From: a bacterium
GTDB taxonomy: Bacteria; Patescibacteriota; Patescibacteriia; 2-12-FULL-60-25
Direction of reading: 5' to 3'
NCBI GenBank assembly: GCA_021796435.1
Contig: JAJYXM010000016.1
Coordinates: 374,625 to 438,624, forward strand
Length of the DNA stretch: 64,000 nucleotides
The translations under genes and the position numbers were made by a program. Positions 3,415 to 38,177 of the stretch are shown piece by piece; the stretch's first letter is position 1, and every line of letters begins with the position of its first letter. Under the pieces are notes generated by a model. That model did not search any database. It was not told the origin of the DNA and was given only the letters and a program-made list of their open reading frames with translations.

Positions 3415-3527
3415 GGATTAGACGGTACGACATCAGCTTCGGGTAAGACGGGAGAAACAGGGGCTACACTGGAGTCGAGTTGTGTCTCGACAAGATATGT
3501 ATTAAAGTCTGGAAAAGAAGCAAACAT

Positions 3528-4664
3528 ATGTCTACGACATATAAAAAGCGGGTCAGCCAAATCCTCGAGGGTACGGGCATAACGCTGAACGGCTCGGAGC
3601 CATGGGACATCCATGTATCTGATGAGCGGTTTTATCCTCGTGTCTTGTCGGACGGGTCGATCGGACTCGGCGAGTCATATATGGACGGCTGGTGGGAGTG
3701 CGATCGGATCGATGAAGCGGTTTCCCGTCTTCTCCGATACGACATACCTTCAAGGCTGAAGATAAATCCTGCCTTGGTATGGAGCGTAGTCAGCGCCAAG
3801 CTCACGAACAGACAGAGCGAAAAACGCGCTTTCCACATCGGCCAAGTACATTACGATATAGGCAATGACCTGTATCAAACCATGCTCGATAAGCGGATGA
3901 CGTACACCTGCGGTTATTGGAAATCGGCGGAAGAACCGAATCGGGCGATTACCCTGGATGAGGCGCAGGAAGCCAAACTAGATCTGGTATGCCGTAAGAT
4001 TGGGTTGAAGGCGGGTCAGCGGGTGCTTGATATCGGTTGCGGCTGGGGGAGCTTCGCGAAGTTCGCCGCGGAAAGATACGGGGCAGAGGTCGTAGGCGTC
4101 ACCGTCTCAAAGGAACAACAGAAGCTCGGAAAGGAATTGTGCAGCGGGTTGCCGGTAGAGATTCGTCTGCAGGACTATCGCGATGTCAATGAATCCTTCG
4201 ACCACGTCGTGTCTTTGGGCATGATCGAACACGTGGGCTGCAAGAACTACCGAACGATGTATCAGGTCGTCGACAGGTGCATGAAGGATGACGGTCTTTT
4301 CCTGCTGCATACGATCGGAGGGAACAAGTCAGCCCATACGACCGATCCTTGGATAGAGAAATACATCTTCCCCAACAGCATGCTGCCGTCAGTCAAGCAG
4401 TTGGCGGCTGCGGCGGAACGGATTTTCGTGATGGAGGATTGGCATAACTTCGGTACCGATTATGACAGGACGTTGATGGAATGGGACCGTAATTTCGAAA
4501 CGCATTGGGATTCGCTGAAAGACAGATATGACGAGCGCTTCCGCCGCATGTGGCGTTATTATCTGCTGGCTTGCGCCGGTTCGTTCCGTTCACGCGAAAA
4601 TCAGTTGTGGCAAATCGTGTATTCCAAAAAAGGCGTGCTCGGCGGATACGTGGCTGTCCGCTGA
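3528..4664 (+). CDS. cfa: Cyclopropane-fatty-acyl-phospholipid synthase (class I SAM methyltransferase)
   Basis: VLDIGCGWG SAM motif I. Cfa-family sequence throughout (NDLYQTMLD..., LHTIGGNKSAHTTDPWIEKYIFPNSMLPS). Confidence 0.8.
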   Translation: MSTTYKKRVSQILEGTGITLNGSEPWDIHVSDERFYPRVLSDGSIGLGESYMDGWWECDRIDEAVSRLLRYDIPSRLKINPALVWSVVSAKLTNRQSEKRAFHIGQVHYDIGNDLYQTMLDKRMTYTCGYWKSAEEPNRAITLDEAQEAKLDLVCRKIGLKAGQRVLDIGCGWGSFAKFAAERYGAEVVGVTVSKEQQKLGKELCSGLPVEIRLQDYRDVNESFDHVVSLGMIEHVGCKNYRTMYQVVDRCMKDDGLFLLHTIGGNKSAHTTDPWIEKYIFPNSMLPSVKQLAAAAERIFVMEDWHNFGTDYDRTLMEWDRNFETHWDSLKDRYDERFRRMWRYYLLACAGSFRSRENQLWQIVYSKKGVLGGYVAVR

Positions 4665-19119: not shown

Positions 19120-20685
19120 ATGGCTGCAAAAATTAAGTCCGAAAGGCTTTCAAAAGGGCCTGTTGTGGTGATTGTTTGGGATGGTTTCGGCATAAGCTCC
19201 AATAAAGAAGGCAATGCGGAATATTATGCCAAGATGCCTGTTTGGCATAAGCTTTTGGCGGAATATCCAGATTCTTTGCTTTGGGCTGATGGAATCAATG
19301 TAGGCTTGCCGCCGGGACAGCCGGGAAATTCCGAAGCAGGACATGCCACGATCGGAGCCGGCAGACCGGTCGAGACTGATCAGGTCGCCATAGATCGTTC
19401 GATACGCGACAAGTCTTTCGAGAATAACCAGGCTTTGATGCAAGCCGCGGCGCACTGCTTACGCAACAAGAGCACGTTGCACATGATGGGTCTTTTGACA
19501 GACAACAAAAGCGGTCATGCATCGCCTTATCATGTAGATGCCTTGATCGAATTCGCAGCGACGTTCGATCTGCCGCGCGTCGGCCTGCATCTGTTCACGG
19601 ATGGACGAGACACCTCTCCGTTCCGTGCGGCTTCCCTGATCGCCGAGCTGGAAAGGAAATTGCCGAGCAACTTCAAGATCGCCACCGTGATGGGACGTTT
19701 TTATGCGATGGACAGAAATAAGTATTGGGAACGTACGGCAATGGCGTATGCCGCGTTGACCTCGGGTCTGGGCGTAGTCGCGGAATCGGCGACTGATGCC
19801 ATAACGAATGCCTATACGCGCGGAGAAAGCGATGAATTCATCACGCCCACGGTCATCTGTCCGGACGATTACTGCGAAGCGCCGGTCATGGACAACGACG
19901 CGATGATCTTCTGGAATCTGCGTTCAGACCGTGCGCGTCAGCTGACCAAGCCTTTCGTCATGCCTGATTTCGAGAAGAAAGAGCATCATTCCTTCAGGCG
20001 TAAGGCCAAGCTGAAGAATCTGATGTATGTCACCATGACCGAATTCGCCAAGGATCTGGACAGCGTCATCTCGGCTTTTCCGCATCGCGAGGTCCCGGGT
20101 ACGATCGTGGAAGCCCTGCGTTACGATAAGCAGATGTATATCGCCGAGAGCGAGAAGTTCTCGCAAGTGACTTATTTCTTGAACGGCGGTTACGATAAGC
20201 CGAGGTTCCATGAGGAACGTATCCGTATTCCGTCAAGACGTGTCGCACGTTATGACCATTCGCCGCGCATGAAGGCTGATGAGATCGCCAGGAACGTAGT
20301 CAAATCCATCGGCGAGAAGTATGATTTTATCCTTGTGAATTTCGCGAATGCGGATATGGTCGGGCATACGGGTAACCTGAAGGCAGGCATCAAAGCCTGT
20401 GAAGCTTTGGATGATGCCTTGGGTGTGATCTGGAAGAAATTGAATAAGGTAAAGGGCACGTTGATCGTGACGGCTGATCATGGGAACGTCGAACGCATGA
20501 TCTCACCTTCCGGCGGAGCGGATACGGAGCATGACATGAGTCCGGTGCCTTTTCTTGCGGCAGGGGATTGCGTAAAATCAAAGAAGGCCCAGCGAGGGAC
20601 GCTCTCCGACATCGCTCCGACCGCGCTGTGGCTGTTGGGCGTCGAAAAACCTAAAGAGATGACAGGGCATAATCTGCTAAGATGA
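19120..20685 (+). CDS. gpmI: 2,3-bisphosphoglycerate-independent phosphoglycerate mutase (iPGM), copy 1
   Basis: VVVIVWDGFG, GNSEAGHATIGAGR (phospho-Ser region), TADHGN. Confidence 0.8.
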   Translation: MAAKIKSERLSKGPVVVIVWDGFGISSNKEGNAEYYAKMPVWHKLLAEYPDSLLWADGINVGLPPGQPGNSEAGHATIGAGRPVETDQVAIDRSIRDKSFENNQALMQAAAHCLRNKSTLHMMGLLTDNKSGHASPYHVDALIEFAATFDLPRVGLHLFTDGRDTSPFRAASLIAELERKLPSNFKIATVMGRFYAMDRNKYWERTAMAYAALTSGLGVVAESATDAITNAYTRGESDEFITPTVICPDDYCEAPVMDNDAMIFWNLRSDRARQLTKPFVMPDFEKKEHHSFRRKAKLKNLMYVTMTEFAKDLDSVISAFPHREVPGTIVEALRYDKQMYIAESEKFSQVTYFLNGGYDKPRFHEERIRIPSRRVARYDHSPRMKADEIARNVVKSIGEKYDFILVNFANADMVGHTGNLKAGIKACEALDDALGVIWKKLNKVKGTLIVTADHGNVERMISPSGGADTEHDMSPVPFLAAGDCVKSKKAQRGTLSDIAPTALWLLGVEKPKEMTGHNLLR

Positions 20686-22262
20686 ATATGAGACCGAAAC
20701 CTGTAGTGTTGATCGTAGTGGATGGTTTGGGCATAGCTCCGCCTGCCGACGGTAATGCCGTCGTCGAGGCGGAGATGCCGAATTTCAGGCGCTATGTCGA
20801 AAGTTATCCGGCGATGACCGTGCTGGCTTCTGGTTCGGCTGTGGGTCTTTCCTGGGGCATGATGGGTAATTCCGAGGTGGGGCACTTGACCATCGGAGCC
20901 GGTAGGATCTTCTTCCAAAGCATCCCGCGCATCAGTTTCGCCATCGAGAACGGAGAATTCTACACGAACAAAGTCTTTTTGGACGCCATCACGCACTGCA
21001 AGAAGACGGGCGGTAAGATACATCTGATGGGGTTGGTCTCGCCTGGCGGCGTGCACTCATCGGATGCGCATCTGCATGCATTGCTCGATCTCTACAGCCG
21101 CCAGAAATTCGATAAGGTATTCATCCACGCTTTCCTTGACGGACGCGACACCATCTTCAACAGTGCATTAGGTTTCATCCATGATCTGGAAGAGAAGATA
21201 AAAGAATACAAGGTCGGCAAGATAGCGACTGTCTGTGGGCGCTATTTCGCCATGGATCGCGATAACCGTTGGGACCGCATACAGAAGGCCTACGACGCCA
21301 TGACCAAAGGAATCGGCGATCTATTGGCGCCGTCCGCGAGCGAAGCGATACAGCATTGGTATGACCAGAAAGTCTACGACGAAGAAATTCCGCCGACGGT
21401 CATAGAGAAGGGCGGTAAGCCCGTGGCTATAGTGGAAGCTGGCGACGCGGTGATATTCTTCAATACCCGTCCTGATCGTGCGCGTGAAATCACCAAAGCC
21501 TTCGTGCTGCCGAGTTTCGAGAAGTTCCCGCGCGAGCAGATAAAGGATCTATATTTCGGGACCATGACGGAATACGAAAAGGATCTCCCGGTGTCCGTGG
21601 CTTATCCGCCGTTGGCCATAGACAATTGCCTGGCGAAGGTCGTCTCGGATGCCGGTCTGCGCCAGATGCATATCGCGGAGACGGAAAAATACGCCCACGT
21701 GACCTTCTTCATGAACGGCATGGTCGAATCCGAATTCCCTGGCGAGGACAGGGTCATCATCCCGAGTCCACGCGTCTCGACTTATGACAAAGCGCCGGAG
21801 ATGTCGGCGCCGCTCATCGCAGATCGTGTCGTCGAGGAGGTCTCGAAGGGTAGTTACGATCTGATCATCCTGAATTTCGCCAATCCTGACATGGTCGGGC
21901 ATACGGGCGACGAAAAGGCGACAGTCGAGGCGTGCCAGACGGTCGATAAATCCATCGCGAGGATAGTGGATGCAGTCTTGGCTGTTGGGGGAGTCGTACT
22001 CATCACAGCGGATCACGGTAATGCCGAAGAGGTGAAGAATCTGATGACAGGCGATATGGACAAGGAACATTCGACTAATCCCGTGCCTTTCATCATCATC
22101 GGAAAACAATTCGAAGGCGTACGCGCGCCTATCGGCGACGTGGTGGGAGGGGACCTTTCGTTGACTACACCGGTCGGCATGTTGGCTGACGTGGCGCCGA
22201 CGATATTGAAGATCATGGAACTGCCGCAGCCAGCGGAAATGACAGGAAAGCCGTTGATCTGA
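20682..22262 (+). CDS. gpmI: 2,3-bisphosphoglycerate-independent phosphoglycerate mutase (iPGM), copy 2, tandem paralog
   Basis: VVLIVVDGLG, GNSEVGHLTIGAGR, ITADHGN. Start overlaps the copy-1 stop (ATGA). Confidence 0.8.
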   Translation: MNMRPKPVVLIVVDGLGIAPPADGNAVVEAEMPNFRRYVESYPAMTVLASGSAVGLSWGMMGNSEVGHLTIGAGRIFFQSIPRISFAIENGEFYTNKVFLDAITHCKKTGGKIHLMGLVSPGGVHSSDAHLHALLDLYSRQKFDKVFIHAFLDGRDTIFNSALGFIHDLEEKIKEYKVGKIATVCGRYFAMDRDNRWDRIQKAYDAMTKGIGDLLAPSASEAIQHWYDQKVYDEEIPPTVIEKGGKPVAIVEAGDAVIFFNTRPDRAREITKAFVLPSFEKFPREQIKDLYFGTMTEYEKDLPVSVAYPPLAIDNCLAKVVSDAGLRQMHIAETEKYAHVTFFMNGMVESEFPGEDRVIIPSPRVSTYDKAPEMSAPLIADRVVEEVSKGSYDLIILNFANPDMVGHTGDEKATVEACQTVDKSIARIVDAVLAVGGVVLITADHGNAEEVKNLMTGDMDKEHSTNPVPFIIIGKQFEGVRAPIGDVVGGDLSLTTPVGMLADVAPTILKIMELPQPAEMTGKPLI

Positions 22263-25255: not shown

Positions 25256-25816
25256 ATGATTAGTGCATCTTTAGATTTGTTTTCTGTGAGCCTGATCCAA
25301 GATATTTTTTTGGCTAACCCGATGTCTAAAGCGGTCGCCGTATTTTTGGCGCGTTGGGCGATTTATCTGTTTCTGATCCCTATCCTTTATTTCGTGAAGA
25401 CGAGGAAGCAGGACCTGCATCACGCCGTCGCCGAAGCCGCTTGGGGTGGAGGTGTCGCGTTGATACTCACGACCGTGATGGCTTATTTCCTCCAAAGGCC
25501 TCGTCCTTATATCGACGCGTCGGGGATCGCGTTGCTGATCCCGTCGCCGCTCAACACATCATTCCCTTCCGGGCACACCGCGGCGTCATTCGCTATCGCG
25601 TTCGCCATCCTGTATGCCGATAAGCGCTGGGGGATTTTCGCTCTGGTGTTGGCTTGTTCGATAGCGCTTGGTAGAATCGCAGTCGGAGTGCATTATCCGA
25701 GCGACATAGTCGGAGGTGTGTTGGTCGGTTTCGCCAGTTTCGCGTTGGTCAGGTTCATGCATGGCGAATTGACGCGTCGCGATGTCGCGCCACATAACGG
25801 CAAAGCAAAAAGATGA
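25256..25816 (+). CDS. PAP2-family phosphatase (undecaprenyl-diphosphatase/phosphatidate-phosphatase-like)
   Basis: PSGHTAASF and GVHYPSDIVGG PAP2 motifs. Start uncertain: a TTG at 25205 overlapping the nth stop is an alternative. Confidence 0.65.
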   Translation: MISASLDLFSVSLIQDIFLANPMSKAVAVFLARWAIYLFLIPILYFVKTRKQDLHHAVAEAAWGGGVALILTTVMAYFLQRPRPYIDASGIALLIPSPLNTSFPSGHTAASFAIAFAILYADKRWGIFALVLACSIALGRIAVGVHYPSDIVGGVLVGFASFALVRFMHGELTRRDVAPHNGKAKR

Positions 25817-26841
25817 AAAAGATGATATTCGTGTTGGCGTTGATCCTGCTTTTTACGGCGGGCTTTTTTTCTTGGTTCGCGCCGGCGGCTTGGCTGTCCA
25901 AACCTGACCAGAATGCCCAGAGCATGAAGTTCACGGTCCCGGAGGGCGCGACGGCCGGTGAAGTGGGGCAGGCGTTGCAGCAAAGAGGGGTCATCGCTTC
26001 GGCTTGGGGATATGGCCTTTACATCAAGATGGATGCTACGGCGCAACGCCCGAAGGCAGGCGATTATCAGGTGAAGACGGGAATGAGTTACCGCAGCCTT
26101 GCGCGGCTCTTCGCTTTAGGCCCGGAGAGGAACGAGATAGGGGTGAAGATAATCGAAGGTTGGAACCTAAGCGATGAAGAGGGCGCTTTGGCGAAGTTGG
26201 GCGTGGCAGGTAAGGACTTCCGTGCGTTGACGGGTAACTATAAGGCCAGACAACCTTATGCCTCCAGTCTGAAAAATGACTATCTGTTCTTGTCGGAGTT
26301 GCCTGAAGGAGCGTCGCTCGAAGGTTTTTTGTTCCCGGATACGTATCGCGTGTGGCAAGACCAGCTGCCGGAAAGCCTGGTGCGTAAGCAATTGACGCAG
26401 TTCTCTAAGGTCTATGACGAAATTTCTCCGGAGCTGAAGAAGCAGGGGAAGGGCCTGGATGACGTCATCATCCTTGCCTCCATCGTGGAGCGCGAGGCGA
26501 CGGATCTGGCGGATAAGAAGATGATCGCAGGAATATACCTGAATCGCATCAAGCGCGGGATGCTGTTGCAATCCGATGCGACGGTGAATTACGTGACCGG
26601 CGCCGGACGTGCCAGACCGACTTTGGATGATTTGGCCGTCGATTCACCATTCAATACCTATAAATATAAGGGCCTGCCTCCGGCACCGATCTGCAACCCG
26701 GGCAAGGATTCGATCATGGCAGCGTTGGATCCTACGCCGTCGGATTATCTATACTATCTGCACGATGCCGACGGAAAAAGCTACTACGCCAAGACCCTGG
26801 ATGAACATATCAAAAATCGTTATAAGGCTTACGGGGAGTAA
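25813..26841 (+). CDS. mltG: Endolytic murein transglycosylase MltG (YceG-like)
   Basis: N-terminal TM. YceG-like sequence including ...LYYLHDADGKSYYAKTL.... Confidence 0.75.
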   Translation: MKKMIFVLALILLFTAGFFSWFAPAAWLSKPDQNAQSMKFTVPEGATAGEVGQALQQRGVIASAWGYGLYIKMDATAQRPKAGDYQVKTGMSYRSLARLFALGPERNEIGVKIIEGWNLSDEEGALAKLGVAGKDFRALTGNYKARQPYASSLKNDYLFLSELPEGASLEGFLFPDTYRVWQDQLPESLVRKQLTQFSKVYDEISPELKKQGKGLDDVIILASIVEREATDLADKKMIAGIYLNRIKRGMLLQSDATVNYVTGAGRARPTLDDLAVDSPFNTYKYKGLPPAPICNPGKDSIMAALDPTPSDYLYYLHDADGKSYYAKTLDEHIKNRYKAYGE

Positions 26842-29511: not shown

Positions 29512-30312
29512 TTAAAATTCACAAGTACCAAACTGTCCTCCTTCTATAATTTCATCAATTACCTTTCCCTTCCATACAATGCCTAATTGTGCATGTATTT
29601 CACTTTGTCCAATTCTTCCTGAATAAACACCAAGAAACCCTCTTATTCTGCCAATAATTGAGTCATCTTTCATTAAGCCATTTTCCATTTTATGAATACC
29701 AATTCGCTGGAAAATTACAGGGGAACCTGAAAGGCCAGATCTTGTTGCAGTATCAACTAGTAACTTTGGTAATTGGTCTTCATCTACATCAGGTTCTGTC
29801 GCGATACTACCTTTCTTCCAAATTGGTAATCCCAAATATCGAAAATCTTCAAATGGATATCCAAGAATAAATACTTCATCTGATACTTCAGGTGGAATAT
29901 CATTTTCAAAATCATAATTATTTATTGGAAAATAATGAAAAGCTTCATTTTGTGTTAATTTTATAGCCACTACATCAACTTTGTTTTTATATGCAGGATG
30001 TACCAACCAACATGGTTTTTGAAATTCATCATCATGGTAAAGGTTGATTATTGTTTTGTTTGCACTACCGTCTTTTTGTTTTAATCTGAAGTAAGTAACA
30101 AAAACTGTAGGGATCCCAGAGTGTTTAGAGAGTGGTTCGCCTGAAATAGGATTTCTTCCAGTGGCATTATGCCAGTTAGTAATTAAATAGATTTCTTCAT
30201 TGTATTTATAGAGAAAAGAAGAGGCGGTCGAAAATATTGCATCACTATCAGAACGCCCTATTGCGATTTGGTGTGTAACTTGGGAAAGGTAATCTGGTTT
30301 AATTATATTCAT
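29512..30312 (-). CDS. Cytoplasmic trypsin-like (S1/chymotrypsin-fold) serine protease, encoded in an AT-rich islet
   Basis: LITNWHNA (His), VDVVAIKL (Asp) and TRSGLSGSPVI (GDSGGP-like Ser) triad motifs. No signal peptide. GC visibly far below the flanks. Confidence 0.55.
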   Translation of the reverse strand: MNIIKPDYLSQVTHQIAIGRSDSDAIFSTASSFLYKYNEEIYLITNWHNATGRNPISGEPLSKHSGIPTVFVTYFRLKQKDGSANKTIINLYHDDEFQKPCWLVHPAYKNKVDVVAIKLTQNEAFHYFPINNYDFENDIPPEVSDEVFILGYPFEDFRYLGLPIWKKGSIATEPDVDEDQLPKLLVDTATRSGLSGSPVIFQRIGIHKMENGLMKDDSIIGRIRGFLGVYSGRIGQSEIHAQLGIVWKGKVIDEIIEGGQFGTCEF

Positions 30313-30546
30313 ATTTCAACTTACGCTAATTAAAGCCCCCCAAATGTCTGACAACGTTTCCCGATGAAGCGAAGTTTTTGATTTTCTTCCTTGATTTTAA
30401 TTAATTAAGAAAAGAAAAGCAAAAATTTGGGTCGAAAGAAAAGTATATTCCTTATTAATATTTCTCTTTAAGCGAAGCGCAAGAGAAAGTTTAAATTAAG
30501 ATATTTTTCTGGAGCCGCTTATCGCGGTGTTAGATGATGTAAATTT

Positions 30547-30921
30547 TTATTTTTTAATATTAAATGCTTTAATAAACGATGATTCTTCAATTTTTGAAGT
30601 ATTAATACCTAGATCTTTACACATTGCTTTAAACAATTCGTATAACCTATCGTTAGCTAAGTGATTTTGACCAGATGTTAATGTGTCGTGTAGATTTTTT
30701 ACCTTATTTTGAATATCTGGTGAATTAGAAAAGACAACAAATATTTCATTTAGTGTTTTAGTGAAATTATCTCCAGACAAATTATATCTGTATCCAACGA
30801 AATTTCTTAAAACATCCATTTTTGTTCTTTTTTTATCTGAACGTTTATGGTAAAAAATCGAAATAAGAACGCCGATAATACCAGATATTAACGATGATGT
30901 TATTATTAAAAATGTGTTCAT
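30547..30921 (-). CDS. Small single-pass membrane protein (124 aa), partner of the islet protease
   Basis: N-terminal TM (FLIITSSLISGIIGVLISIFY), then a basic stretch and a helical soluble domain. Extremely AT-rich. Confidence 0.45.
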   Translation of the reverse strand: MNTFLIITSSLISGIIGVLISIFYHKRSDKKRTKMDVLRNFVGYRYNLSGDNFTKTLNEIFVVFSNSPDIQNKVKNLHDTLTSGQNHLANDRLYELFKAMCKDLGINTSKIEESSFIKAFNIKK

Positions 30922-31095
30922 AAAATTAAAAAATAAAAATTTATTTCATCTAACTAGCTTTTATACGACATTTTTACCCATAAGCGTCCAGCTTCTGCAT
31001 CTTAGGCGAAATATCGGTGGCGGTAAAGGTGGGTTTCGTTGCGGGTCGTGGACAGGATTTTTTTGCCAAATAACACTGTTTTTTAGCTGTCTCCT

Positions 31096-31842
31096 CTAAT
31101 TTTCAACGTATCCTCCATCCACGACAAAGGTCGAGCGGGTGATGAAACTGGCGTCATCCGAGACTAAGAACATGATCGCCTGTGCTATCTCTTCGGGTTT
31201 GCCGAACCTGCCAAGCAGTATCTTCTTCGTTTCGCTTTCCACGTAATCCTTATCAAGGTCTTTGTTTATTTCGGTTTCGACCCAGCCCGGCGCGACTGCG
31301 TTGACTCGGATGGTCGGCGCGAGTTGCGTCGCAAGATTCTTGGTCAAGCTGATGACGCCGGATTTCGATGCATCATAATCCATGGAGTCGGGACTCAACG
31401 TGTCGATTCCGTTCGTAGAAGCGATGTTCACGATGTTGCCTGAACCGTTCTTGAGCATATGCTGCGAGGCATATTTAGAACATAGGTATGTACCGATGAG
31501 GTTGACGTCTAGAGTCCTCTTCCATTGTTCGACGGTTCGTTCCTCAAAAGGGACGTCATAGACGATGCCTGCGTTGTTGACCAAGATATCGATCTTACCG
31601 AAAGCCTCGATACATTTTTCGACCATGGATTTAACCTGGTCTTCTTGGGCGACGTCGGCCTGTACGATCATCGCTACGCCATTCATTTTTACAATCTCGT
31701 CAGCTACCTCTTGGGCCCGTTGTTTTTCTTTCTCGAAGTTTATGACCACTTTTGCGCCTTCTTTGGCGAAAAGCAGGGCGGTGGCTCTGCCGATGCCTCG
31801 GCTCGCGCCTGTTATGAGCGCGACTTTGTCGTTCAGTTTCAT
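31096..31842 (-). CDS. Short-chain dehydrogenase/reductase (3-oxoacyl-ACP reductase FabG-like)
   Basis: TGASRGIG Rossmann motif. NNAG. YxxxK catalytic motif (YDASK). Confidence 0.75.
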   Translation of the reverse strand: MKLNDKVALITGASRGIGRATALLFAKEGAKVVINFEKEKQRAQEVADEIVKMNGVAMIVQADVAQEDQVKSMVEKCIEAFGKIDILVNNAGIVYDVPFEERTVEQWKRTLDVNLIGTYLCSKYASQHMLKNGSGNIVNIASTNGIDTLSPDSMDYDASKSGVISLTKNLATQLAPTIRVNAVAPGWVETEINKDLDKDYVESETKKILLGRFGKPEEIAQAIMFLVSDDASFITRSTFVVDGGYVEN

Positions 31843-31976
31843 AAAATGTTTAGTCTATCCTTAGCTTAGTCGAATTATGTGGTGTGGTAAAGATAGATTG
31901 GCGAAATAGCTGATGGTTTTAGATCCCGGCTCGCGCGACGCTTGGCCGGGATGACATATTGGGTTAACATGGCGCC

Positions 31977-34142
31977 ATGTCGGTTTTCGTATTACAGGAT
32001 GGCGGCGTGCCGGTTTCACGCCGTATAGATTATTCCCGTGAATTGAATCAGGAACAGCTGGATGTGGTGCTGAACGGCGATGGGCCGTGCTTGGTGTTGG
32101 CTGGAGCCGGGTCGGGCAAGACACGCACCGTGACGTATCGCGTGGCCTATCTTCTGGAGCAGGGCGTAGATCCGCAATCCATCATGCTCCTGACCTTCAC
32201 CAACAAGGCGGCGCGCGAGATGATGCAGCGCGTCGAATCCCTGCTTGGCCAGACGGCGCGCGGCGTGTGGGGCGGGACGTTCCATTCGACGGCGAACCGC
32301 ATCCTGCGATCGGGGCATGCCGTGTCAGATTATGGACGCAACTTCACGATCCTGGACCAGGAAGATTCGCAGAGCCTGATCAAGGCTGTGATGAAGGAAC
32401 TGAAGATCGATCCGAAAGCGCGCAGGTTCCCGACCGCTGCGGTGCTGCAGAATGTAGTATCTTTCGCGCGTAACACGCTGCAGAGCGTGGGGAGCGCCTT
32501 GGAACTTAAGCATGAGAATTTTTTGCCGCTCCTGTCCGATATCGAAGCCGTGGCCGAAATCTATGCGCGGCGCAAACGTGAAGCGAACGTGATGGATTTC
32601 GATGATCTGCTCGCCAATTGGCTCGGCCTGCTGAACCATCCCGATATCGGTCCGGCGATTGCCGGTCGGTTCAAGTATGTCCTGGTCGATGAGTATCAGG
32701 ACACGAATGCGATCCAGGCGGCGATCATCCGACAATTAGGTGGGGTGCATGGGAATGTACTCGTCGTCGGTGACGATGCGCAGTCCATCTACGCCTTCCG
32801 CGGCGCGGATGTGAAGAACATACTGGATTTCCCGAACGAGTGGCCGAAGGCGAAGATCTTCAAGCTGTTGACGAACTACCGCAGCGCGCCGGAGATACTC
32901 GAGCTCGCCAACGAATCGCTGCAGCACAACACCAAGCAGTTCCAAAAGGATCTGCGGGCCGTACGAGGGGCGGGCGTCAAACCGAACATGGTCGCCGTCG
33001 CTTCGGCCAGTCAGGAAGCGCGTTATGTCGCGGAACAGATCCTGTCTTTGCGTGCGCAAGGCACGGCTCTCGGCAACATGGCCGTACTCTTCCGTTCGTC
33101 GGCGCATTCGCAGGCGTTGGAATTCGAATTGATGAAACGCGACGTGCCGTATGAATACCGCGGCGGCATGAAGTTCTTCGAGCGCGCCCACATCAAAGAT
33201 GCGTTGTCGCATCTGCGGGTCATCCATAACGTACATGATGAAGTCGCTTGGTTGCGCATCCTGAATCTGCAGACGGGAATCGGCGCAGCGACGGCCGGAA
33301 CTTTGGTCAACCGTATCCGGGGCATGGAAAGCATCGAGATGGTCTTGGATAAGGCGGGTCAGGAATTGCCGTCACGCGCGACACAGGGATTCCAAGTCTT
33401 GGTCGAGATGGAGCGCGACATGCTGGCGCAAGCGCCGGCTCCGGCTTTCATGCTACGTACTTTCTTGCAGTCGCCATACCGCGATTATCTTGAGCGTGAA
33501 TATCCTGATTGGCGTGATCGTTTCGAGGATCTGGAGCAATTGGTCGTGTTCGCCGAGAACTATCATGATCTTTCGTCTTTTTTGGCGGACATCGCATTGT
33601 ACGATGAGGTGGCGGCGAAGCGTGAAGAGGCCGATGCTTCGGGGGAAAGCGAGAGGATAATCCTTTCCACCATACATCAAGCCAAAGGTCTTGAGTGGGA
33701 TACGGTGTTCATCATCCATCTGGCGGATTCGTTCTTCCCGAACAAGCGGGCTATGGGCGAAGAAGGGGGGATAGAGGAAGAACGGCGTCTGTTTTATGTC
33801 GCTGTGACACGTGCCAAGCAACGGTTGTTCTTGTGTTATCCAGTGACTGCAGGATATGACGCGCTCATGTTCAATCAGCCGTCGCTTTTTATTGAAGAGC
33901 TTTCGCCGCGCTTGATGGAGAGGATCGAAGTCAGGGAAGAGGGGGCGAGTCGTACCGCGTACCGCGCACCGCGTACGTCAGATGATTGGAGTTGGGATGA
34001 AGGTTACGAAGAACCATCGATCGAAATAGATAGGTACGGGAACAGGAATCAGGGTTCGGCGAGCAAGACGGTGTGGAAGTCGTCGACGAGTAATGACAAG
34101 AAGAAACCCTCGTCATTCTTGAGGGATGTAGATGAGTTGTAA
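31977..34142 (+). CDS. uvrD: UvrD/PcrA-type superfamily-1 DNA helicase
   Basis: LNQEQLDVV...GPCLVLAGAGSGKTRT (Walker A). DEYQDTN. Other SF1 motifs. Confidence 0.8.
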   Translation: MSVFVLQDGGVPVSRRIDYSRELNQEQLDVVLNGDGPCLVLAGAGSGKTRTVTYRVAYLLEQGVDPQSIMLLTFTNKAAREMMQRVESLLGQTARGVWGGTFHSTANRILRSGHAVSDYGRNFTILDQEDSQSLIKAVMKELKIDPKARRFPTAAVLQNVVSFARNTLQSVGSALELKHENFLPLLSDIEAVAEIYARRKREANVMDFDDLLANWLGLLNHPDIGPAIAGRFKYVLVDEYQDTNAIQAAIIRQLGGVHGNVLVVGDDAQSIYAFRGADVKNILDFPNEWPKAKIFKLLTNYRSAPEILELANESLQHNTKQFQKDLRAVRGAGVKPNMVAVASASQEARYVAEQILSLRAQGTALGNMAVLFRSSAHSQALEFELMKRDVPYEYRGGMKFFERAHIKDALSHLRVIHNVHDEVAWLRILNLQTGIGAATAGTLVNRIRGMESIEMVLDKAGQELPSRATQGFQVLVEMERDMLAQAPAPAFMLRTFLQSPYRDYLEREYPDWRDRFEDLEQLVVFAENYHDLSSFLADIALYDEVAAKREEADASGESERIILSTIHQAKGLEWDTVFIIHLADSFFPNKRAMGEEGGIEEERRLFYVAVTRAKQRLFLCYPVTAGYDALMFNQPSLFIEELSPRLMERIEVREEGASRTAYRAPRTSDDWSWDEGYEEPSIEIDRYGNRNQGSASKTVWKSSTSNDKKKPSSFLRDVDEL

Positions 34143-34214: not shown

Positions 34215-34586
34215 ATGCCGATCACATGCGCTGAGTGTCAGACGGAGCTCTCCATGGGTTTCAACTTTTTTGTGGCCCACCAGGTCATGTTGACCGGGGA
34301 AGTCGCGGAGCTGCCTGATCCTGAAGACAAGACGCGGACGGCCAACGCTTTCGTCTGCCCGGGTTGTCTGGCCAAGGTGCCGGATCACGCCAAGCACGTC
34401 GAGGCGAAGCGCGCCAGACAGCCGCATTGGCACTCGATCATCGCGATTGCGCCTGTCGATACGGCCAAATGCGACTATTCGGCGTTCGGCAAGGCGCCGG
34501 TCACCGGAGAATACACGTTCGTCAAACTCGGCGTGTTCAAGCGACGGCTGCCCAAAGCCATGCTGGAGATCACGAAGAACTTCTAG
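34215..34586 (+). CDS. Hypothetical zinc-ribbon protein
   Basis: GGAGGAGG RBS 5 nt upstream. CAEC...CPGC cysteine pairs. Confidence 0.45.
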   Translation: MPITCAECQTELSMGFNFFVAHQVMLTGEVAELPDPEDKTRTANAFVCPGCLAKVPDHAKHVEAKRARQPHWHSIIAIAPVDTAKCDYSAFGKAPVTGEYTFVKLGVFKRRLPKAMLEITKNF

Positions 34587-34600
34587 AGGCGAGGGAGGAC

Positions 34601-35665
34601 ATGATGAATATATATCACGAGATGTTTCGCGGTCTGGACAAGGCACAGATCAAGGCCAAACTCGCACTCGTAAGCCGTGTAATCTACGGAGCCTTCGGCT
34701 CGTACGAAGCATTCGTCGCTACCCTCGAGAACAGTGAGGTTGGTCTTTCGCCTGATGAGTTGCTTGCTTGCGCCAAGTGGCGAGAGGCTAATTCGGATTG
34801 GCCGCCGACGAAGCTGTATCGAAGGTACGCCGAGGTTGGCGGGAACCGCGACGAGTTTTACGCCCATCTGCTCCGTCGACACCATCTGCTGGATTTGCGT
34901 GAACATTTTCCGGAACGGGTCACGCCGAAGTTGCTGAAGGAGTTCGGTTGGTTTTGGTTCGAAGAGGCGCTTGCGAATCACGTGCACGGGTTCAATCCGG
35001 CTTACGAAGCATTCCGTGATGCCGGGTACAAGCGGGGAATGGTCGAGATCCGTCGGGCCGCGATCGATTGCTGCGATCTTGGGTTCATCAAGAGATACGG
35101 CATCGCACTCGGCTCCCGCGAGAAGTCCTGGATAGCCAGGGACCTTGCCGAAAACGCGAGGGGTAATGAGCCGGCGGATGTCTGTCGGTTTTTGGTGGAA
35201 AACGGTTTCACCCGCCATTACCGCAGATTCCTGGAAACCGCGAGTCTGTCTGAGACGCGTTATTCGACCTATCTGTACTTCTCAGAGATCCTGGGGGTCG
35301 AATCGACCACTGAGTTCTTGGAGGAGGAGCTGTATCCGGTCGTGGAGAATGAAGCCGACAAGTTTGATCTCTGCAGTGAGCTCCACCGGCGTAACCCGCG
35401 TAAGTGGGAAAAAGAGCTGAAGATGCTGGCAGCCCGACGGCGGATGCGCTCTCTGGAGTGCGGCGAGCCGGTAAAGGCTGATAAGATGGCCAAGATCTGC
35501 GATACGCCCTTGACGGTCGAGGAGCTGCTCGGCATCCACGCGCGTTACATCCTCGACGAGAGACTGGTCATGCGCACCAAGGCCGTCCAGGCGCTGGACA
35601 TGGCAACCAAGATCGTCGCCAAGCAGGCGGGTGCCGCCAAGCCCAAGAAAGCGAAGGCGGCGTGA
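34601..35665 (+). CDS. Hypothetical helical protein with a Lys/Ala-rich histone-H1-like C-terminal tail
   Basis: GAGGGAGG RBS, then ATG at 34601. The ORF-track extension to 34364 overlaps the upstream gene and was trimmed. Tail KQAGAAKPKKAKAA. Confidence 0.5.
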   Translation: MMNIYHEMFRGLDKAQIKAKLALVSRVIYGAFGSYEAFVATLENSEVGLSPDELLACAKWREANSDWPPTKLYRRYAEVGGNRDEFYAHLLRRHHLLDLREHFPERVTPKLLKEFGWFWFEEALANHVHGFNPAYEAFRDAGYKRGMVEIRRAAIDCCDLGFIKRYGIALGSREKSWIARDLAENARGNEPADVCRFLVENGFTRHYRRFLETASLSETRYSTYLYFSEILGVESTTEFLEEELYPVVENEADKFDLCSELHRRNPRKWEKELKMLAARRRMRSLECGEPVKADKMAKICDTPLTVEELLGIHARYILDERLVMRTKAVQALDMATKIVAKQAGAAKPKKAKAA

Positions 35666-35783: not shown

Positions 35784-36356
35784 ATGATTTATTTCCTTTG
35801 GTTTGTCCTGATCGCATTGATCGTATCGACGACGACATCGCTCGCGTTGATCCTGAATGAGACGTGGCGCATCACGATCAGGCGCGGCGTGCCGGCGGTG
35901 TCATCTTCTTGGCCGGTGGTGGATAAGGTCATTAAAGCACAAGTTTTTCCTCGTGAAGGACTTATTTTGGATTTGGGTTGTGGTACGGGTTGGGCGTTGC
36001 GGAGGATTTGGCGTGCGGGATACAACGGACCGTTCATCGGATATGAGACGGCGTTGTTGCCGTATCTTGTCGGTAGATCCTGGAATTGGATCACGCGCGC
36101 GCCGGTGAAGATTGTGAGGCAGGATTTTTCCGCAGCGCCGTTCGAGAAGGCGAAGGGTATATATCTTTTCCTTTTGCCGCGGATGCTGCCGGAAGTCGGC
36201 AAGATGATCGCAACAAAATCTCGCGTCGGTACGGTCGTGGTTTCGGCGGAGTTCGCGATCCCGGGATGGGAAGCGGAGAAGGTACTGGAAGCCAGAGGTG
36301 TGACCGCACGGCAAGCGAAAATCCATGTTTACCGCGTGAAAGCCCAGGAATCTTGA
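35784..36356 (+). CDS. Membrane-anchored class I SAM-dependent methyltransferase
   Basis: N-terminal TM. ILDLGCGTGW motif I. Alternative start at 35688. Confidence 0.55.
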   Translation: MIYFLWFVLIALIVSTTTSLALILNETWRITIRRGVPAVSSSWPVVDKVIKAQVFPREGLILDLGCGTGWALRRIWRAGYNGPFIGYETALLPYLVGRSWNWITRAPVKIVRQDFSAAPFEKAKGIYLFLLPRMLPEVGKMIATKSRVGTVVVSAEFAIPGWEAEKVLEARGVTARQAKIHVYRVKAQES

Positions 36357-36388
36357 GTTTTTACGGGTAAAATGGTAAAGAATCATGC

Positions 36389-37375
36389 ATGAGATCAGCC
36401 AGGACAAGGCTTCCCGGGCATCCGGATAAGGCGTGTGATTTGGTCGTCGAAGCGATAGTGGACGAATATCTGCGTCGTGATCCAGAGTCGCGATTGAGCA
36501 TCAACGCCATAGGTGGGCGTGGTGCTATTTTTGTTTGTGGTGACGTGAAGAGTGATGCGGATTTCGACGTCACCTCGATCGTGAGACAGACTTTGGGTAA
36601 GGCTGGGGTGATCCAGGAGTTCGAGCCCTTCATCGCCATCGAGCAGGTCGCGCCGGAACAACGGGAGCAGATGACTACGGGTCCGGCCGAAAGCGTCACC
36701 GTAGTGGGATATGCAACGCAGGATACGGTCGATATGTTGCCGCGACCGGTTTCGTTGTCGCGCGTGATCGCTAAACGATTGTACGATCTGAGGACGGGCG
36801 ATGAGACGTGGTTTTGGCTAGGTGCGGATGGCGAGGTCGCGGTACATGAGGAGGGTAACGACGTCTATGTTCGTCTTTTGATAGAACACGGAAGCCACGA
36901 CTTGAGCTTGGCGAGGAACAAACTGACGGAAGTCGTACGCGCTCTGGCGCCGGAGGCGAAGATAAAGATCAATCCGCTCGGCCCGAACGAAGTGCGTGGG
37001 TTGCATAATGTGTCCGGAGCATCAGGCAAAGACATGTCGGCGTATGGTCCGATGTTGCCGGCGGTGCGCGGAGGGATCGGATATGATTTGCGGCATCCGG
37101 AAAAATCCGGCGCTTGGTTGGCTCGTGCAGCGGCACGAAAGCTGGTGGCCCAAGGCGCGAAGTCGGCCATGGTGCAGCTGGTCTACGAAGCCGGTGACTC
37201 GTTCCCGTCGCATATCACGGCGCGTGACGAGAAAGGTAACGACCTTTCGTCGTCTTTGGATAAAGAGGAACTATCGATCAAGCGCGTACTCTCCGATTGG
37301 CAGAGGCCGGGCCTGAATTCAGAGGCGGCTCTGTGGGGATTCGCCGGTCAAGCTGGGTTGCCTTGGGAAGAATAG
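36389..37375 (+). CDS. Divergent, truncated S-adenosylmethionine synthetase (MetK)-like protein
   Basis: GHPDK signature, GYAT.DT.DMLP and INP.G blocks collinear with MetK. GAGDQG, DTYGG and GGGAFSGKD are replaced (PAES, SAYGP, GGIGYDLRH). 328 aa against about 385 for canonical MetK. Confidence 0.55.
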   Translation: MRSARTRLPGHPDKACDLVVEAIVDEYLRRDPESRLSINAIGGRGAIFVCGDVKSDADFDVTSIVRQTLGKAGVIQEFEPFIAIEQVAPEQREQMTTGPAESVTVVGYATQDTVDMLPRPVSLSRVIAKRLYDLRTGDETWFWLGADGEVAVHEEGNDVYVRLLIEHGSHDLSLARNKLTEVVRALAPEAKIKINPLGPNEVRGLHNVSGASGKDMSAYGPMLPAVRGGIGYDLRHPEKSGAWLARAAARKLVAQGAKSAMVQLVYEAGDSFPSHITARDEKGNDLSSSLDKEELSIKRVLSDWQRPGLNSEAALWGFAGQAGLPWEE

Positions 37376-37400: not shown

Positions 37401-38177
37401 ATGAAAAATAATTGGTTAGCCTATACATCCATCTCGCTCTTATTATTGTTCGGCGCCGGATGCTCCAATGATAATCCGACCGAATTGGACAGACCGTTGC
37501 AGGCCGGAGGAACGGATCAGAGCCAAAACGGGTTGGTCGAACCTCCGCCGAGTCCGCCTCAAGAACAAACTAATAGCGAAGAACAAAATATGTCACAAGC
37601 CAATCCGAGCGATATAACCAATGCCGAAGAGAAAGCGGCCGACGCGACCAGCACGCAGCCTGAAGTCAAGGATGAGCCTTTAGCCTTCCCTGGAGTATTG
37701 CCGAGCGCAGAAATCACGAATAAACAGATCAGGGTCAAGACGTCCAAGGGCGATATCGTTTTCGAGTTGTTGCCCAAGGAAGGGCCGAATGCCGCGTCCA
37801 ATTTCGTCTATCTGGCCAAACGTAAATTCTACGACGGTCTGATGTTCCATCGTGTAGTGCCGCACTTCGTGATCCAGGGCGGCGATCCTTTGACGCGTTA
37901 TCCGCAGGATCCGTATCATCCGTACGGTTCAGGCGATCCCGGCTACAAATTCGCGGACGACAAAGTCACGCAATGGTATACGACGGGGACCGTGGCGATG
38001 GCCAATTCCGGCCCGAACACGAACGGTTCGCAGTTCTTCATCATGCTGGAGACGCCCAACTGGGACATGCCCAAAAGCTATTCGATCTTCGGACGTGTGA
38101 CCAAGGGTATGGACGTGGTCGGCAAGATCGCAGTCGGCGATAAGATAATATCCGTCACAGTGGAGCCGAAGAAGTGA
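37401..38177 (+). CDS. Cyclophilin-type peptidyl-prolyl cis-trans isomerase lipoprotein
   Basis: Lipobox LLFGAGC. FHRVVPHFVIQGGDP and MANSGPNTNGSQFFI motifs. Confidence 0.8.
   Translation: MKNNWLAYTSISLLLLFGAGCSNDNPTELDRPLQAGGTDQSQNGLVEPPPSPPQEQTNSEEQNMSQANPSDITNAEEKAADATSTQPEVKDEPLAFPGVLPSAEITNKQIRVKTSKGDIVFELLPKEGPNAASNFVYLAKRKFYDGLMFHRVVPHFVIQGGDPLTRYPQDPYHPYGSGDPGYKFADDKVTQWYTTGTVAMANSGPNTNGSQFFIMLETPNWDMPKSYSIFGRVTKGMDVVGKIAVGDKIISVTVEPKK

What the first reader, a model, noticed from the sequence alone, without database searches (positions are those of the whole stretch)
35784..37375. Truncated, active-site-diverged MetK-like protein next to a membrane SAM-methyltransferase
The ORF at 36389..37375 keeps the MetK GHPDK signature and is collinear with MetK through the GYAT..T.DMLP and INP.G blocks. 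It replaces the flexible GAGDQG loop, the DTYGG block and the GGGAFSGKD lysine block, and it is about 55 aa short at the C-terminus. It directly follows a membrane-anchored class I SAM methyltransferase (ILDLGCGTGW). Either it is a minimal AdoMet synthetase feeding the adjacent methyltransferase, or a MetK-derived protein with a new function.
Basis: partly seen in the sequence, partly recalled or inferred. Interest (0 to 1): 0.55.

Follow-up and report, generated by a model that had tools for sequence, protein, structure and literature searches.

The report
Catalytically dead MetK ortholog in Uhrbacteria
This gene descends directly from MetK, the enzyme that makes the universal methyl donor SAM. 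It is well folded and strongly conserved across a lineage of ultra-small (CPR) bacteria, but it has lost almost every residue needed to make SAM, so the protein must do something else and the cell must get SAM another way.

Summary
The ORF 36389..37375 (328 aa) is real. It has a confident methionine adenosyltransferase (MAT) fold (AF2 pLDDT 95; Foldseek TM 0.82-0.87 to solved MATs).

It keeps only 3 of the 15 residues (H14, D16, K17) that are 100% invariant in 57 canonical MATs. In its clade (~328 aa, Candidatus Uhrbacteria) the lost positions are not replaced by anything conserved.

It is not C-terminally truncated. It ends in the MAT ..LPWEE motif. Most of its shortness is shared with fully canonical compact CPR MATs of about 346 aa.

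Synteny (YceG-UvrD-[gene]-cyclophilin) and an NJ tree show it is the positional ortholog of the lineage's own metK. Relatives form a continuum from 15/15 through 12-14 and 9 down to 0-4 residues kept.

It is under strong purifying selection (dN/dS 0.05).

The neighbouring membrane methyltransferase is real, but this type is adjacent in only 8 of 53 clade loci.

Verdict: not a minimal AdoMet synthetase. It is a MetK-derived pseudoenzyme or repurposed protein whose function is unknown. Whether a second MAT exists elsewhere in these genomes could not be tested.

The parts
36389..37375 (+). MetK-derived, catalytically degenerate MAT-fold protein (328 aa)
   Evidence: ORF. Pfam and NCBIfam. AF2 pLDDT 95.3. 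Foldseek to solved MATs, TM 0.82-0.87. 3 of 15 active-site residues kept. dN/dS 0.05.
36416..36430 (+). Retained GHPDK motif (residues 10-14; E. coli G13-K17)
   Evidence: Within the clade H is 82-86% and D 93-97% conserved. K is not conserved (27%).
36677..36694 (+). TGPAES, the remnant of the GAGDQG gating-loop motif (D118 -> E; variable in the clade)
37013..37051 (+). SGASGKDMSAYGP, in place of the canonical (D)xGLTGRKxxVDTYGG block (D238 -> V, R244 -> K, K245 -> D, 2-residue deletion)
37073..37105 (+). GIGYDLRHPEK, in place of AFSGKDPSKVDR (K265 -> Y, K269 -> H, D271 -> E)
37361..37372 (+). C-terminal PWEE, equivalent to the E. coli P366-W367-E368 motif. It shows that the C-terminus is not truncated.
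   Evidence: W326 is 96% conserved in the clade and 95% in canonical MATs.
35784..36356 (+). Membrane-anchored small class I methyltransferase-like protein (190 aa). A lineage-restricted neighbour, not a conserved partner.
   Evidence: This type is present in 8 of 53 clade loci.
37401..38177 (+). Cyclophilin-type PPIase with a lipoprotein-like signal sequence. The most conserved downstream neighbour.
   Evidence: Pfam 8.5e-38. Present downstream in 52 of 53 clade loci.
31977..34142 (+). UvrD/PcrA-type helicase, upstream synteny anchor
   Evidence: 46 of 53 clade loci. It also lies upstream of canonical 15/15 MATs in L092, L093 and L094.
25813..26841 (+). YceG (MltG), distal synteny anchor shared with loci that carry a canonical MAT

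Best explanation
SHOWN
- The gene is the direct, same-locus descendant of this CPR lineage's metK.
- It still folds as a compact three-domain methionine adenosyltransferase.
- It has lost the triphosphate-binding lysines and arginine, the metal ligands, the methionine-binding residues, the adenine-stacking phenylalanine and the gating loop.
- None of these positions is re-fixed within the clade.
- It is a single-copy, intact gene under strong purifying selection in dozens of Uhrbacteria species.

INFERRED
- It no longer makes S-adenosylmethionine.
- Most likely it works as a non-catalytic MAT-fold protein, a pseudoenzyme. It probably still pairs through the flat beta-sheet face.
- What remains of the fold (the N-terminal loop and helix, PGHPD..CD..DEYLRRDP, and the GG.G..FV.GD, ADFDV, EPF and WFWLG segments) would serve as a binding or scaffolding surface for a partner or a non-nucleotide ligand.
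- The cell, which does encode SAM-using enzymes, would obtain SAM by uptake from its host or community, or from an unrelated synthase.
- The adjacent methyltransferase is a lineage-specific neighbour in a tightly packed gene string, not a dedicated client.
For: 1. Active site.
- All 15 panel residues are 100% invariant in 57 diverse canonical MATs.
- The query keeps H14, D16 and K17 only.
- Clade consensus fractions at the lost sites are 0.13-0.70.
- Canonical MATs of any length (296-453 aa) keep 13-15; clade members keep 0-4.
- Even archaeal MATs keep His14, Phe230 and Asp163/Asp238 equivalents (PMC3853416). Here F230 -> N and D238 -> V.

2. The metK equivalog model TIGR01034 scores 89.8 bits against a cut-off of 309.4.

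3. Fold is intact: pLDDT 95.3, pTM 0.92; TM 0.82-0.87 to solved MATs at 23-25% identity.

4. Orthology.
- Canonical 15/15 MATs P0424, P0504 and P0495, and the 12/15 protein P0490, sit in the same YceG-UvrD-[MAT]-...-cyclophilin-C39-like-holin-AA_kinase-L10 neighbourhood.
- The NJ tree nests the clade inside compact CPR MATs, with a graded series 15 -> 10-14 -> 7-9 -> 0-4.

5. Selection.
- dN/dS is 0.05 against the 89%-identical ortholog in L007, similar to UvrD (0.03) and the PPIase (0.055).
- Intact ~328-aa ORFs are found in 53 fetched species-level loci.

6. Acceleration. The window's UvrD is 53% identical to that of L093, but the MetK-like protein is only 33.5% identical to L093's MAT. That MAT is 48.6% identical to E. 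coli MetK.

7. SAM is needed. A cyclopropane-fatty-acid synthase (CMAS, 2.5e-90) lies at 3480..4664.

8. No second MAT homologue was seen in the 64-kb window or within +-8 kb in any of 86 loci.
Against: - The rest of the roughly 1-1.5 Mb genomes could not be scanned, so a second MAT cannot be excluded. That includes a canonical one, an archaeal-type one, or one below the top-120 display limit.
- No partner or ligand was identified.
- No 3D coordinates were available to map the conserved residues.
- H14, D16, D163 and an acidic residue at E55 are still 82-93% conserved in the clade. Some residual ligand or metal binding at the old site is therefore possible.
- Many 'clade-specific' motifs (DEFLRRD, ADxD, D/E..L...E) already exist in the canonical 15/15 relatives. 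They do not prove a new site.
- The NJ tree uses simple BLOSUM62 distances and is vulnerable to long-branch effects.
Confidence: 0.55

Rival explanations
1. Repurposed enzyme. The remodelled cleft between subunits catalyses a different reaction or binds a different small molecule. The basic triphosphate site is gone, while acidic residues (D13, D17, D52, D58, D60, E79, E85, D147) stay conserved, which would suit a cationic substrate or a metal.
For: - H14 (82%), D16 (93%), D20 (95%), D/E at E55 (about 90%) and D163 (85%) are retained.
- D58, D60, E79 and F81 are 99-100% conserved and E85 92%.
- By strand periodicity, E79, F81 and E85 face the same side as Q98 (inference).
- The sister ~345-aa group keeps every triphosphate and adenine residue but has lost the methionine and metal residues. 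This suggests a change of substrate before the total loss.
Against: - No new polar residue is fixed at any former catalytic position.
- Several of the conserved acidic residues are inherited from canonical relatives.
- No operon partner suggests a pathway.
Confidence: 0.2
2. Prozyme-like regulator. The dead protein forms a heterodimer with a canonical MAT encoded elsewhere in the genome and tunes its activity, as the dead AdoMetDC paralog does in trypanosomes.
For: - MAT active sites are built across a dimer interface (PMC3853416).
- A pseudoenzyme partner is known in SAM metabolism (PMC6221367, listed).
- The fold and the sheet face are conserved.
Against: - The gene sits at the ancestral metK position. 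It is not a duplicate.
- No second MAT was found in the window, in +-8 kb of 86 loci, or on the same long contigs among the closest 240 canonical CPR MATs.
Confidence: 0.12
3. Still a methionine adenosyltransferase: a minimal enzyme with an unorthodox active site that supplies the neighbouring methyltransferase.
For: - GHPDK is kept in this particular protein.
- The cell needs SAM.
- The gene is the only MAT homologue seen so far.
Against: - 12 of 15 invariant residues are lost and variable within the clade, including all four lysines and both Mg/K ligands.
- The gating loop is lost.
- It falls far below the equivalog cut-off.
- Compact CPR MATs of 323-353 aa keep 15/15, so small size does not require these losses.
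- Methyltransferase adjacency is not conserved.
Confidence: 0.05
4. A gene in slow decay after SAM import made metK dispensable, as in Rickettsia. It would have no function of its own.
For: - Graded loss of catalytic residues across relatives.
- Long branches.
Against: - dN/dS is 0.05.
- Intact ORFs of constant length are found in 53 species-level loci.
- 53 positions are at least 90% conserved.
- The fold prediction is very confident.
Confidence: 0.03

Closest known systems
Bacterial MetK / methionine adenosyltransferase (EC 2.5.1.6; TIGR01034; Pfam PF00438, PF02772, PF02773)
   Same: - Same three-domain fold (TM 0.82-0.87).
- Collinear from GHPDK to the C-terminal PWE.
- Shared structural glycines and prolines, and R279, N225 and W367 equivalents.
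   Different: - 12 of 15 invariant active-site residues are replaced.
- The gating loop is lost.
- 56 aa shorter than E. coli MetK.
- 89.8 bits against the 309.4 cut-off.
Compact CPR-type MATs (about 323-353 aa, e.g. P0424, P0157, P0162; Sung-, Giovannoni-, Liptonbacteria and relatives of Uhrbacteria)
   Same: - Same short architecture. They lack the E. coli insertions and the C-terminal tail.
- P0424-type genes occupy the same YceG-UvrD-...-cyclophilin locus.
- Shared lineage motifs such as DEFLRRDP.
   Different: - They keep 15/15 active-site residues.
- The query has about 18 further small deletions and 3/15 residues.
The ~345-aa 'methionine adenosyltransferase domain-containing proteins' of other Uhrbacteria (e.g. 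P0435 = L082, P0479 = L068)
   Same: - Same lineage, and the same position upstream of the cyclophilin gene.
- They share the ADFD and EPF motifs.
   Different: - They keep 9/15: all triphosphate and adenine residues (H14, D16, K17, K165, F230, R244, K245, K265, K269).
- They have lost the methionine and metal residues.
- The upstream neighbour is LexA rather than UvrD.
AdoMetDC prozyme of trypanosomatids (a catalytically dead paralog in SAM and polyamine metabolism; PMC6221367)
   Same: A conserved, selected, catalytically dead relative of an essential enzyme of SAM metabolism.
   Different: - The prozyme is a duplicate that activates its live paralog.
- Here the gene is the positional ortholog itself, and no live partner was found.
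- This is an analogy only. Nothing was tested.
metK erosion in Rickettsia, which carry a SAM transporter (recalled from the literature; not retrieved here)
   Same: A host-dependent, reduced-genome bacterium in which SAM synthesis appears to be dispensable.
   Different: Rickettsial metK copies become pseudogenes. This gene stays intact under purifying selection.

Membership tests
Methionine adenosyltransferase (MetK, EC 2.5.1.6) | Three-domain MAT fold | tested here: met
   AF2 pLDDT 95.3. Foldseek against PDB: the top 50 hits are all MATs, TM 0.79-0.87.
Methionine adenosyltransferase (MetK, EC 2.5.1.6) | Passes the curated family models (Pfam N, M and C domains; NCBIfam TIGR01034 equivalog) | tested here: not met
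   N domain 57.3 against 33.1 (pass). M domain 31.1 against 29 (marginal pass). C domain 19.5 against 25 (fail). TIGR01034 89.8 against 309.4 (fail).
Methionine adenosyltransferase (MetK, EC 2.5.1.6) | Triphosphate-binding and catalytic residues H14, K165, R244, K245, K265, K269 | tested here: not met
   Only H14 is kept. K165 -> E, R244 -> K, K245 -> D, K265 -> Y, K269 -> H. All are 100% invariant in 57 canonical MATs and variable in the clade.
Methionine adenosyltransferase (MetK, EC 2.5.1.6) | Metal ligands D16 and D271 (Mg2+) and E42 (K+) | tested here: not met
   D16 is kept. D271 -> E (49% E in the clade). E42 -> N (variable).
Methionine adenosyltransferase (MetK, EC 2.5.1.6) | Methionine and adenosine contacts E55, Q98, D118, F230, D238, D163 | tested here: not met
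   E55 -> D, Q98 -> V, D118 -> E, F230 -> N, D238 -> V. Only D163 is kept. The roles of H14, F230, D163 and D238 are taken from PMC3853416.
Methionine adenosyltransferase (MetK, EC 2.5.1.6) | Flexible gating loop with the GAGDQG motif | tested here: not met
   TGPAES in the query. No conserved motif in the clade.
Methionine adenosyltransferase (MetK, EC 2.5.1.6) | Forms SAM from ATP and L-methionine | not testable with these tools
   Needs an enzyme assay or complementation.
metK orthologous group of the Uhrbacteria lineage (evolutionary membership) | Same genomic position as canonical metK in related genomes, and nested in their clade | tested here: met
   Synteny with L090, L092, L093 and L094. 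NJ tree.
Pseudoenzyme (a selected, catalytically inactive homologue of an enzyme) | Loss of catalytic residues together with purifying selection and an intact fold | tested here: met
   (loss). (dN/dS 0.05). (fold).
Pseudoenzyme (a selected, catalytically inactive homologue of an enzyme) | Demonstrated lack of activity and a defined non-catalytic role | not testable with these tools
   Needs biochemistry and interaction mapping.
Class I SAM-dependent methyltransferase (neighbour gene 35784..36356) | Rossmann-like methyltransferase domain with glycine-rich motif I | tested here: inconclusive
   Motif LDLGCGTG is present. Pfam hits are below threshold (18.3 against 27). PDB hits to small lysine methyltransferases are at E 1e-5.

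The most novel reading that the evidence does not exclude
A whole candidate phylum-level lineage (Uhrbacteria) has turned its only metK into a selected non-catalytic protein, although metK is normally essential. These bacteria would then be SAM auxotrophs that depend on a host or community for the cofactor. The graded series 15/15 -> 9/15 (triphosphate and adenine site kept, methionine site lost) -> 0-4/15 would record a stepwise exaptation of the MAT fold to a new, still unknown function.
Probability: 0.4. Interest if true: 0.75.

Novelty: new variant of a known kind. Interest (0 to 1): 0.6.

Why it matters
- MetK is close to universal and essential, and its active site is among the most conserved known.
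- A conserved, selected ortholog with that site erased is unusual.
- It gives a concrete marker for SAM dependence in uncultivated CPR bacteria.
- It provides a natural series of intermediates for studying how an essential enzyme fold is repurposed.
- It flags an annotation problem. JGI calls these proteins 'S-adenosylmethionine synthetase', so metabolic reconstructions of Uhrbacteria would wrongly credit them with SAM synthesis.

Tried and rejected
1. Functional coupling to the adjacent methyltransferase.
- Rejected as a family feature. The window's methyltransferase type occurs in 8 of 53 clade loci, sometimes downstream or on the other strand.
- A second, unrelated methyltransferase/spermidine-synthase-like 478-aa gene occurs in 12 of 53.
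- It is odd that 20 of 53 clade loci and 0 of 26 intermediate loci carry some methyltransferase-like neighbour. This is confounded by shared ancestry and was left open.

2. C-terminal truncation. Rejected.

3. Operon logic from neighbours. UvrD, LexA, DinB, cyclophilin lipoprotein, Gmad2, PGA_cap and XseAB form a housekeeping string with no pathway signal.

4. A change in overall charge that would hint at nucleic-acid binding. None found: median pI is 5.6 against 5.8.

5. Co-occurrence with a canonical MAT.
- I used matching longest-contig lengths as a proxy.
- The only matches were the intermediates themselves (P0435 = L082, P0479 = L068) and one chance match of 32,602 bp.

6. Synteny with Parcubacteria canonical MATs (L087-L089). 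None found; they are too distant to be informative.

7. Literature. Seven full-text searches found nothing on a degenerate MAT in CPR.

8. The afdb50 fold library was unavailable.

9. The promoter and terminator scan gave nothing decisive.
Full report
**What is at the coordinates**

The window is a 54% G+C contig from an uncultivated Patescibacteria (CPR) bacterium.
- An identical protein (P0001) occurs on several metagenome contigs, including one of 1.52 Mb.
- ORF 36389..37375(+) encodes 328 aa.
- It matches Pfam S-AdoMet_synt_N (2.5e-15) and S-AdoMet_synt_M (31.1 bits against a threshold of 29). The C-terminal domain is below threshold.
- It scores 89.8 bits against the NCBIfam metK equivalog, whose cut-off is 309.4.
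- phmmer against PDB sequences finds only methionine adenosyltransferases (best 7e-24). The alignment runs from residue 8 to the last residue.
- An AlphaFold2 model built on 62 homologues is very confident (pLDDT 95.3, pTM 0.92).
- Foldseek places the model on solved MATs with TM 0.82-0.87 at 23-25% identity.

So the protein is a genuine, well-ordered member of the MAT fold.

- Kept: GHPDK, GYAT..DMLP and INP.G.
- GAGDQG has become TGPAES.
- ..GRKxxVDTYGG has become ..GKDMS--AYGP.
- GGGAFSGKDPSKVDR has become RG-GIGYDLRHPEK.

The claim of a 55-aa C-terminal truncation is wrong.
- The protein ends ..GLPWEE, the counterpart of E. coli ..FPWEK.
- Its shortness comes from small internal deletions and the absence of the ~15-aa E. 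coli tail.
- About 38 of the 56 missing residues are also missing in compact CPR MATs of 346-353 aa that are otherwise canonical.

The upstream gene is a real, small class I methyltransferase-like protein.
- It has an N-terminal membrane helix and the ILDLGCGTGW motif.
- Statistical support for the fold is weak but consistent.

**How dead is the active site**

I used a panel of 15 residues, in E. coli numbering: H14, D16, K17, E42, E55, Q98, D118, K165, F230, D238, R244, K245, K265, K269, D271.
- Their roles are established knowledge. His14, Phe230 and Asp163/Asp238 are described in PMC3853416 as conserved in all MAT structures, including archaeal ones.
- Independently of any recollection, all 15 are 100% invariant in 57 diverse canonical representatives.
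- Canonical MATs of any length from 296 to 453 aa keep 13-15 of them.
- The query keeps three: H14, D16 and K17.
- Across 142 members of its clade the former catalytic positions carry no consensus. The top-residue fraction is 0.13-0.70.
- In the most divergent representatives even H14 and D16 change.

This pattern fits relaxed constraint on ATP, methionine and metal binding. It does not fit an alternative way of building the same site.

**Where the gene came from**

The family is restricted to Candidatus Uhrbacteria and unnamed Patescibacteria MAGs.
- 115 species-level genomes matched one peptide pattern, and 80 loci were fetched.
- Titles reading 'uncultured Gammaproteobacteria' belong to automated TPA bins and are evidently mislabelled.

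In 79 loci with a full-length gene, two groups appear.

| Group | Loci | Panel residues kept | Typical length |
|---|---|---|---|
| Query clade | 53 | 1-4 | ~328 aa |
| Intermediates | 26 | 8-14 | ~345 aa |

A search seeded with the intermediate P0139 shows a continuum in this lineage.
- 15/15: 9 proteins.
- 10-14: 30 proteins.
- 9: a large, uniform group of 50 proteins. It keeps every triphosphate and adenine residue but has E42Q, E55V, Q98P, D118G, D238N and D271G.
- 4-8: 30 proteins.

An NJ tree nests the query clade at the tip of this series, on branches two to three times longer than canonical ones.

Synteny settles the relationship.
- Window order: YceG (25813..26841), UvrD (31977..34142), two small genes, the methyltransferase, the MetK-like gene, a cyclophilin lipoprotein, then further on holin_4_2, AA_kinase and L10.
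- The fully canonical P0424 lies in YceG > UvrD > Kelch > MAT > ... > cyclophilin > ... > C39-like (L093).
- P0504 (15/15) lies in YceG > ... > UvrD > ... > MAT (L094).
- P0495 (15/15) lies 3 kb downstream of a UvrD that is 52% identical to the window's (L092).
- P0490 (12/15) lies in LexA < MAT > ... cyclophilin ... C39-like, holin_4_2, AA_kinase, L10, L7/L12 (L090).

The query gene is therefore the positional ortholog of the lineage's own metK. It was altered in place.

**Is it still functional as a gene**

- Against the 89%-identical ortholog in L007, dN/dS is 0.05 (dN 0.062, dS 1.24). This is comparable to UvrD (0.031), the PPIase (0.055) and XseA (0.045).
- ORF length is constant across the clade, and 53 positions are at least 90% conserved.
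- The protein has nevertheless evolved fast. The window's UvrD is 53% identical to L093's, while the MetK-like protein is 33.5% identical to L093's MAT. That MAT is 48.6% identical to E. coli MetK.

The gene is therefore selected, but for something other than the ancestral chemistry.

**Neighbours**

Across the clade the stable neighbours are UvrD upstream (46 of 53 loci) and the cyclophilin gene downstream (52 of 53). The gaps are often 25-250 bp.
- The window's methyltransferase type is present in 8 of 53 loci, upstream, downstream or inverted.
- A different 478-aa gene with a weak methyltransferase/spermidine-synthase-like N-terminal domain is present in 12 of 53.
- Neither occurs in the 26 intermediate loci.
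- The other neighbours (LexA, DinB, enolase, pseudouridine synthase, Gmad2, PGA_cap, XseA/B) are housekeeping genes.

I find no operon logic that assigns a pathway. The idea that the gene 'feeds' the methyltransferase has no comparative support.

**What it most likely does**

Shown: MAT fold, in-place descent from metK, erased active site, strong purifying selection.

Inferred: it does not make SAM.
- My best guess is a non-catalytic MAT-fold protein that retains the sheet-to-sheet pairing of MATs and offers a binding or scaffolding surface.
- The conserved parts are the N-terminal PGHPD..CD..DEYLRRDP loop and helix, the GG.G..FV.GD hairpin, ADFDV, EPF...E and WFWLG.
- Several of these motifs are already present in the canonical relatives. 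They speak for preservation of structure more than for a newly built catalytic site.
- A repurposed cleft that binds a cationic ligand or a metal remains a serious rival, because H14, D16, D20, D/E55, D163, D58, D60, E79 and E85 stay conserved.

The cell needs SAM. A cyclopropane-fatty-acid synthase (2.5e-90) lies at 3480..4664. It must therefore import SAM or make it with another enzyme.

**The main gap**

I could not scan whole genomes.
- There is no second MAT homologue in the 64-kb window or within +-8 kb in 86 loci.

This is suggestive, not proof. An archaeal-type or more distant MAT elsewhere would shift weight to a prozyme-like role.

**Known or new**

- Seven full-text searches returned nothing on degenerate MATs in CPR bacteria.
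- NCBI labels these proteins 'S-adenosylmethionine synthetase N-terminal domain-containing protein'.
- JGI calls them 'S-adenosylmethionine synthetase'.

I rate this a new variant of a known kind: a pseudoenzyme or exapted derivative of MetK. Interest is moderate to high, because the ancestral enzyme is essential and near-universal, and because a graded natural series of intermediates is available.

Noticed in passing
L060-L086 (e.g. L082 7977-9014, L068 2924-3958); proteins P0407-P0479: A large, uniform sister group of ~345-aa MAT homologues in other Uhrbacteria. It keeps all triphosphate and adenine residues (H14, D16, K17, K165, F230, R244, K245, K265, K269). It has fixed E42Q, E55V/I, Q98P, D118G, D238N/G and D271G/S/A. 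This looks like an ATP/triphosphate-binding MAT derivative that no longer binds methionine. NCBI sometimes names these proteins plain 'methionine adenosyltransferase'.
   Followed up: partly
L003 4532-5968, L004 4518-5966, and homologues in 12 of 53 clade loci: A 478-484-aa protein with no Pfam hit above threshold. It has a weak methyltransferase/spermidine-synthase-like N-terminal domain (residues ~56-164) and an uncharacterised ~300-aa C-terminal part. It recurs immediately upstream of the dead MetK gene or just downstream of the cyclophilin gene. Together with the window's methyltransferase type, 20 of 53 clade loci have a methyltransferase-like neighbour, against 0 of 26 intermediate loci.
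   Followed up: partly
window 3480-4664 (+): A strong cyclopropane-fatty-acyl-phospholipid synthase (CMAS, 2.5e-90). This is a SAM-consuming enzyme in a genome whose metK ortholog appears to be dead.
   Followed up: partly
window 19120-20685 and 20682-22262 (+): Two tandem genes for cofactor-independent phosphoglycerate mutase (iPGM_N plus Metalloenzyme), overlapping by 4 bases. This is an unusual duplication for a reduced genome.
   Followed up: no
window 30001-32000 (ORFs 29512-30312(-), 30547-30921(-), 31096-31842(-)): A low-GC stretch (39.5% against about 54% elsewhere). It covers a weak trypsin-like peptidase ORF, a 124-aa membrane protein and an SDR. The related contig L002 differs from L001 in gene content just here, which suggests a variable or acquired island.
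   Followed up: no
window 37401-38177 (+): The conserved downstream cyclophilin has a lipoprotein-type signal (..LLLLFGAGC..) and a long low-complexity linker, so it is extracytoplasmic. It is adjacent to the cytoplasmic MetK-like gene in 52 of 53 clade loci. In loci with a canonical MAT it lies 1.7-4.4 kb away.
   Followed up: partly
window 34215-34586 and 34601-35665 (+): A 123-aa protein with CxxC pairs (zinc-ribbon-like, weak GFA hit) and a 354-aa protein with no family match. Both were found only in the window's closest relatives (3 loci).
   Followed up: no
L011, L013, L020, L031 and many other loci: Many GenBank TPA bins titled 'uncultured Gammaproteobacteria bacterium' carry typical Uhrbacteria gene strings. 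The organism labels are evidently wrong.
   Followed up: no
window 11284-12270 (+), 5525-6343 (-), 59799-60803 (+): A CrtC/lipocalin-like protein, a VanW-like protein and MreB. These were recorded while screening the window for other SAM-related genes. No archaeal-type MAT and no obvious SAM transporter was found among the 40 window ORFs scanned against Pfam.
   Followed up: no
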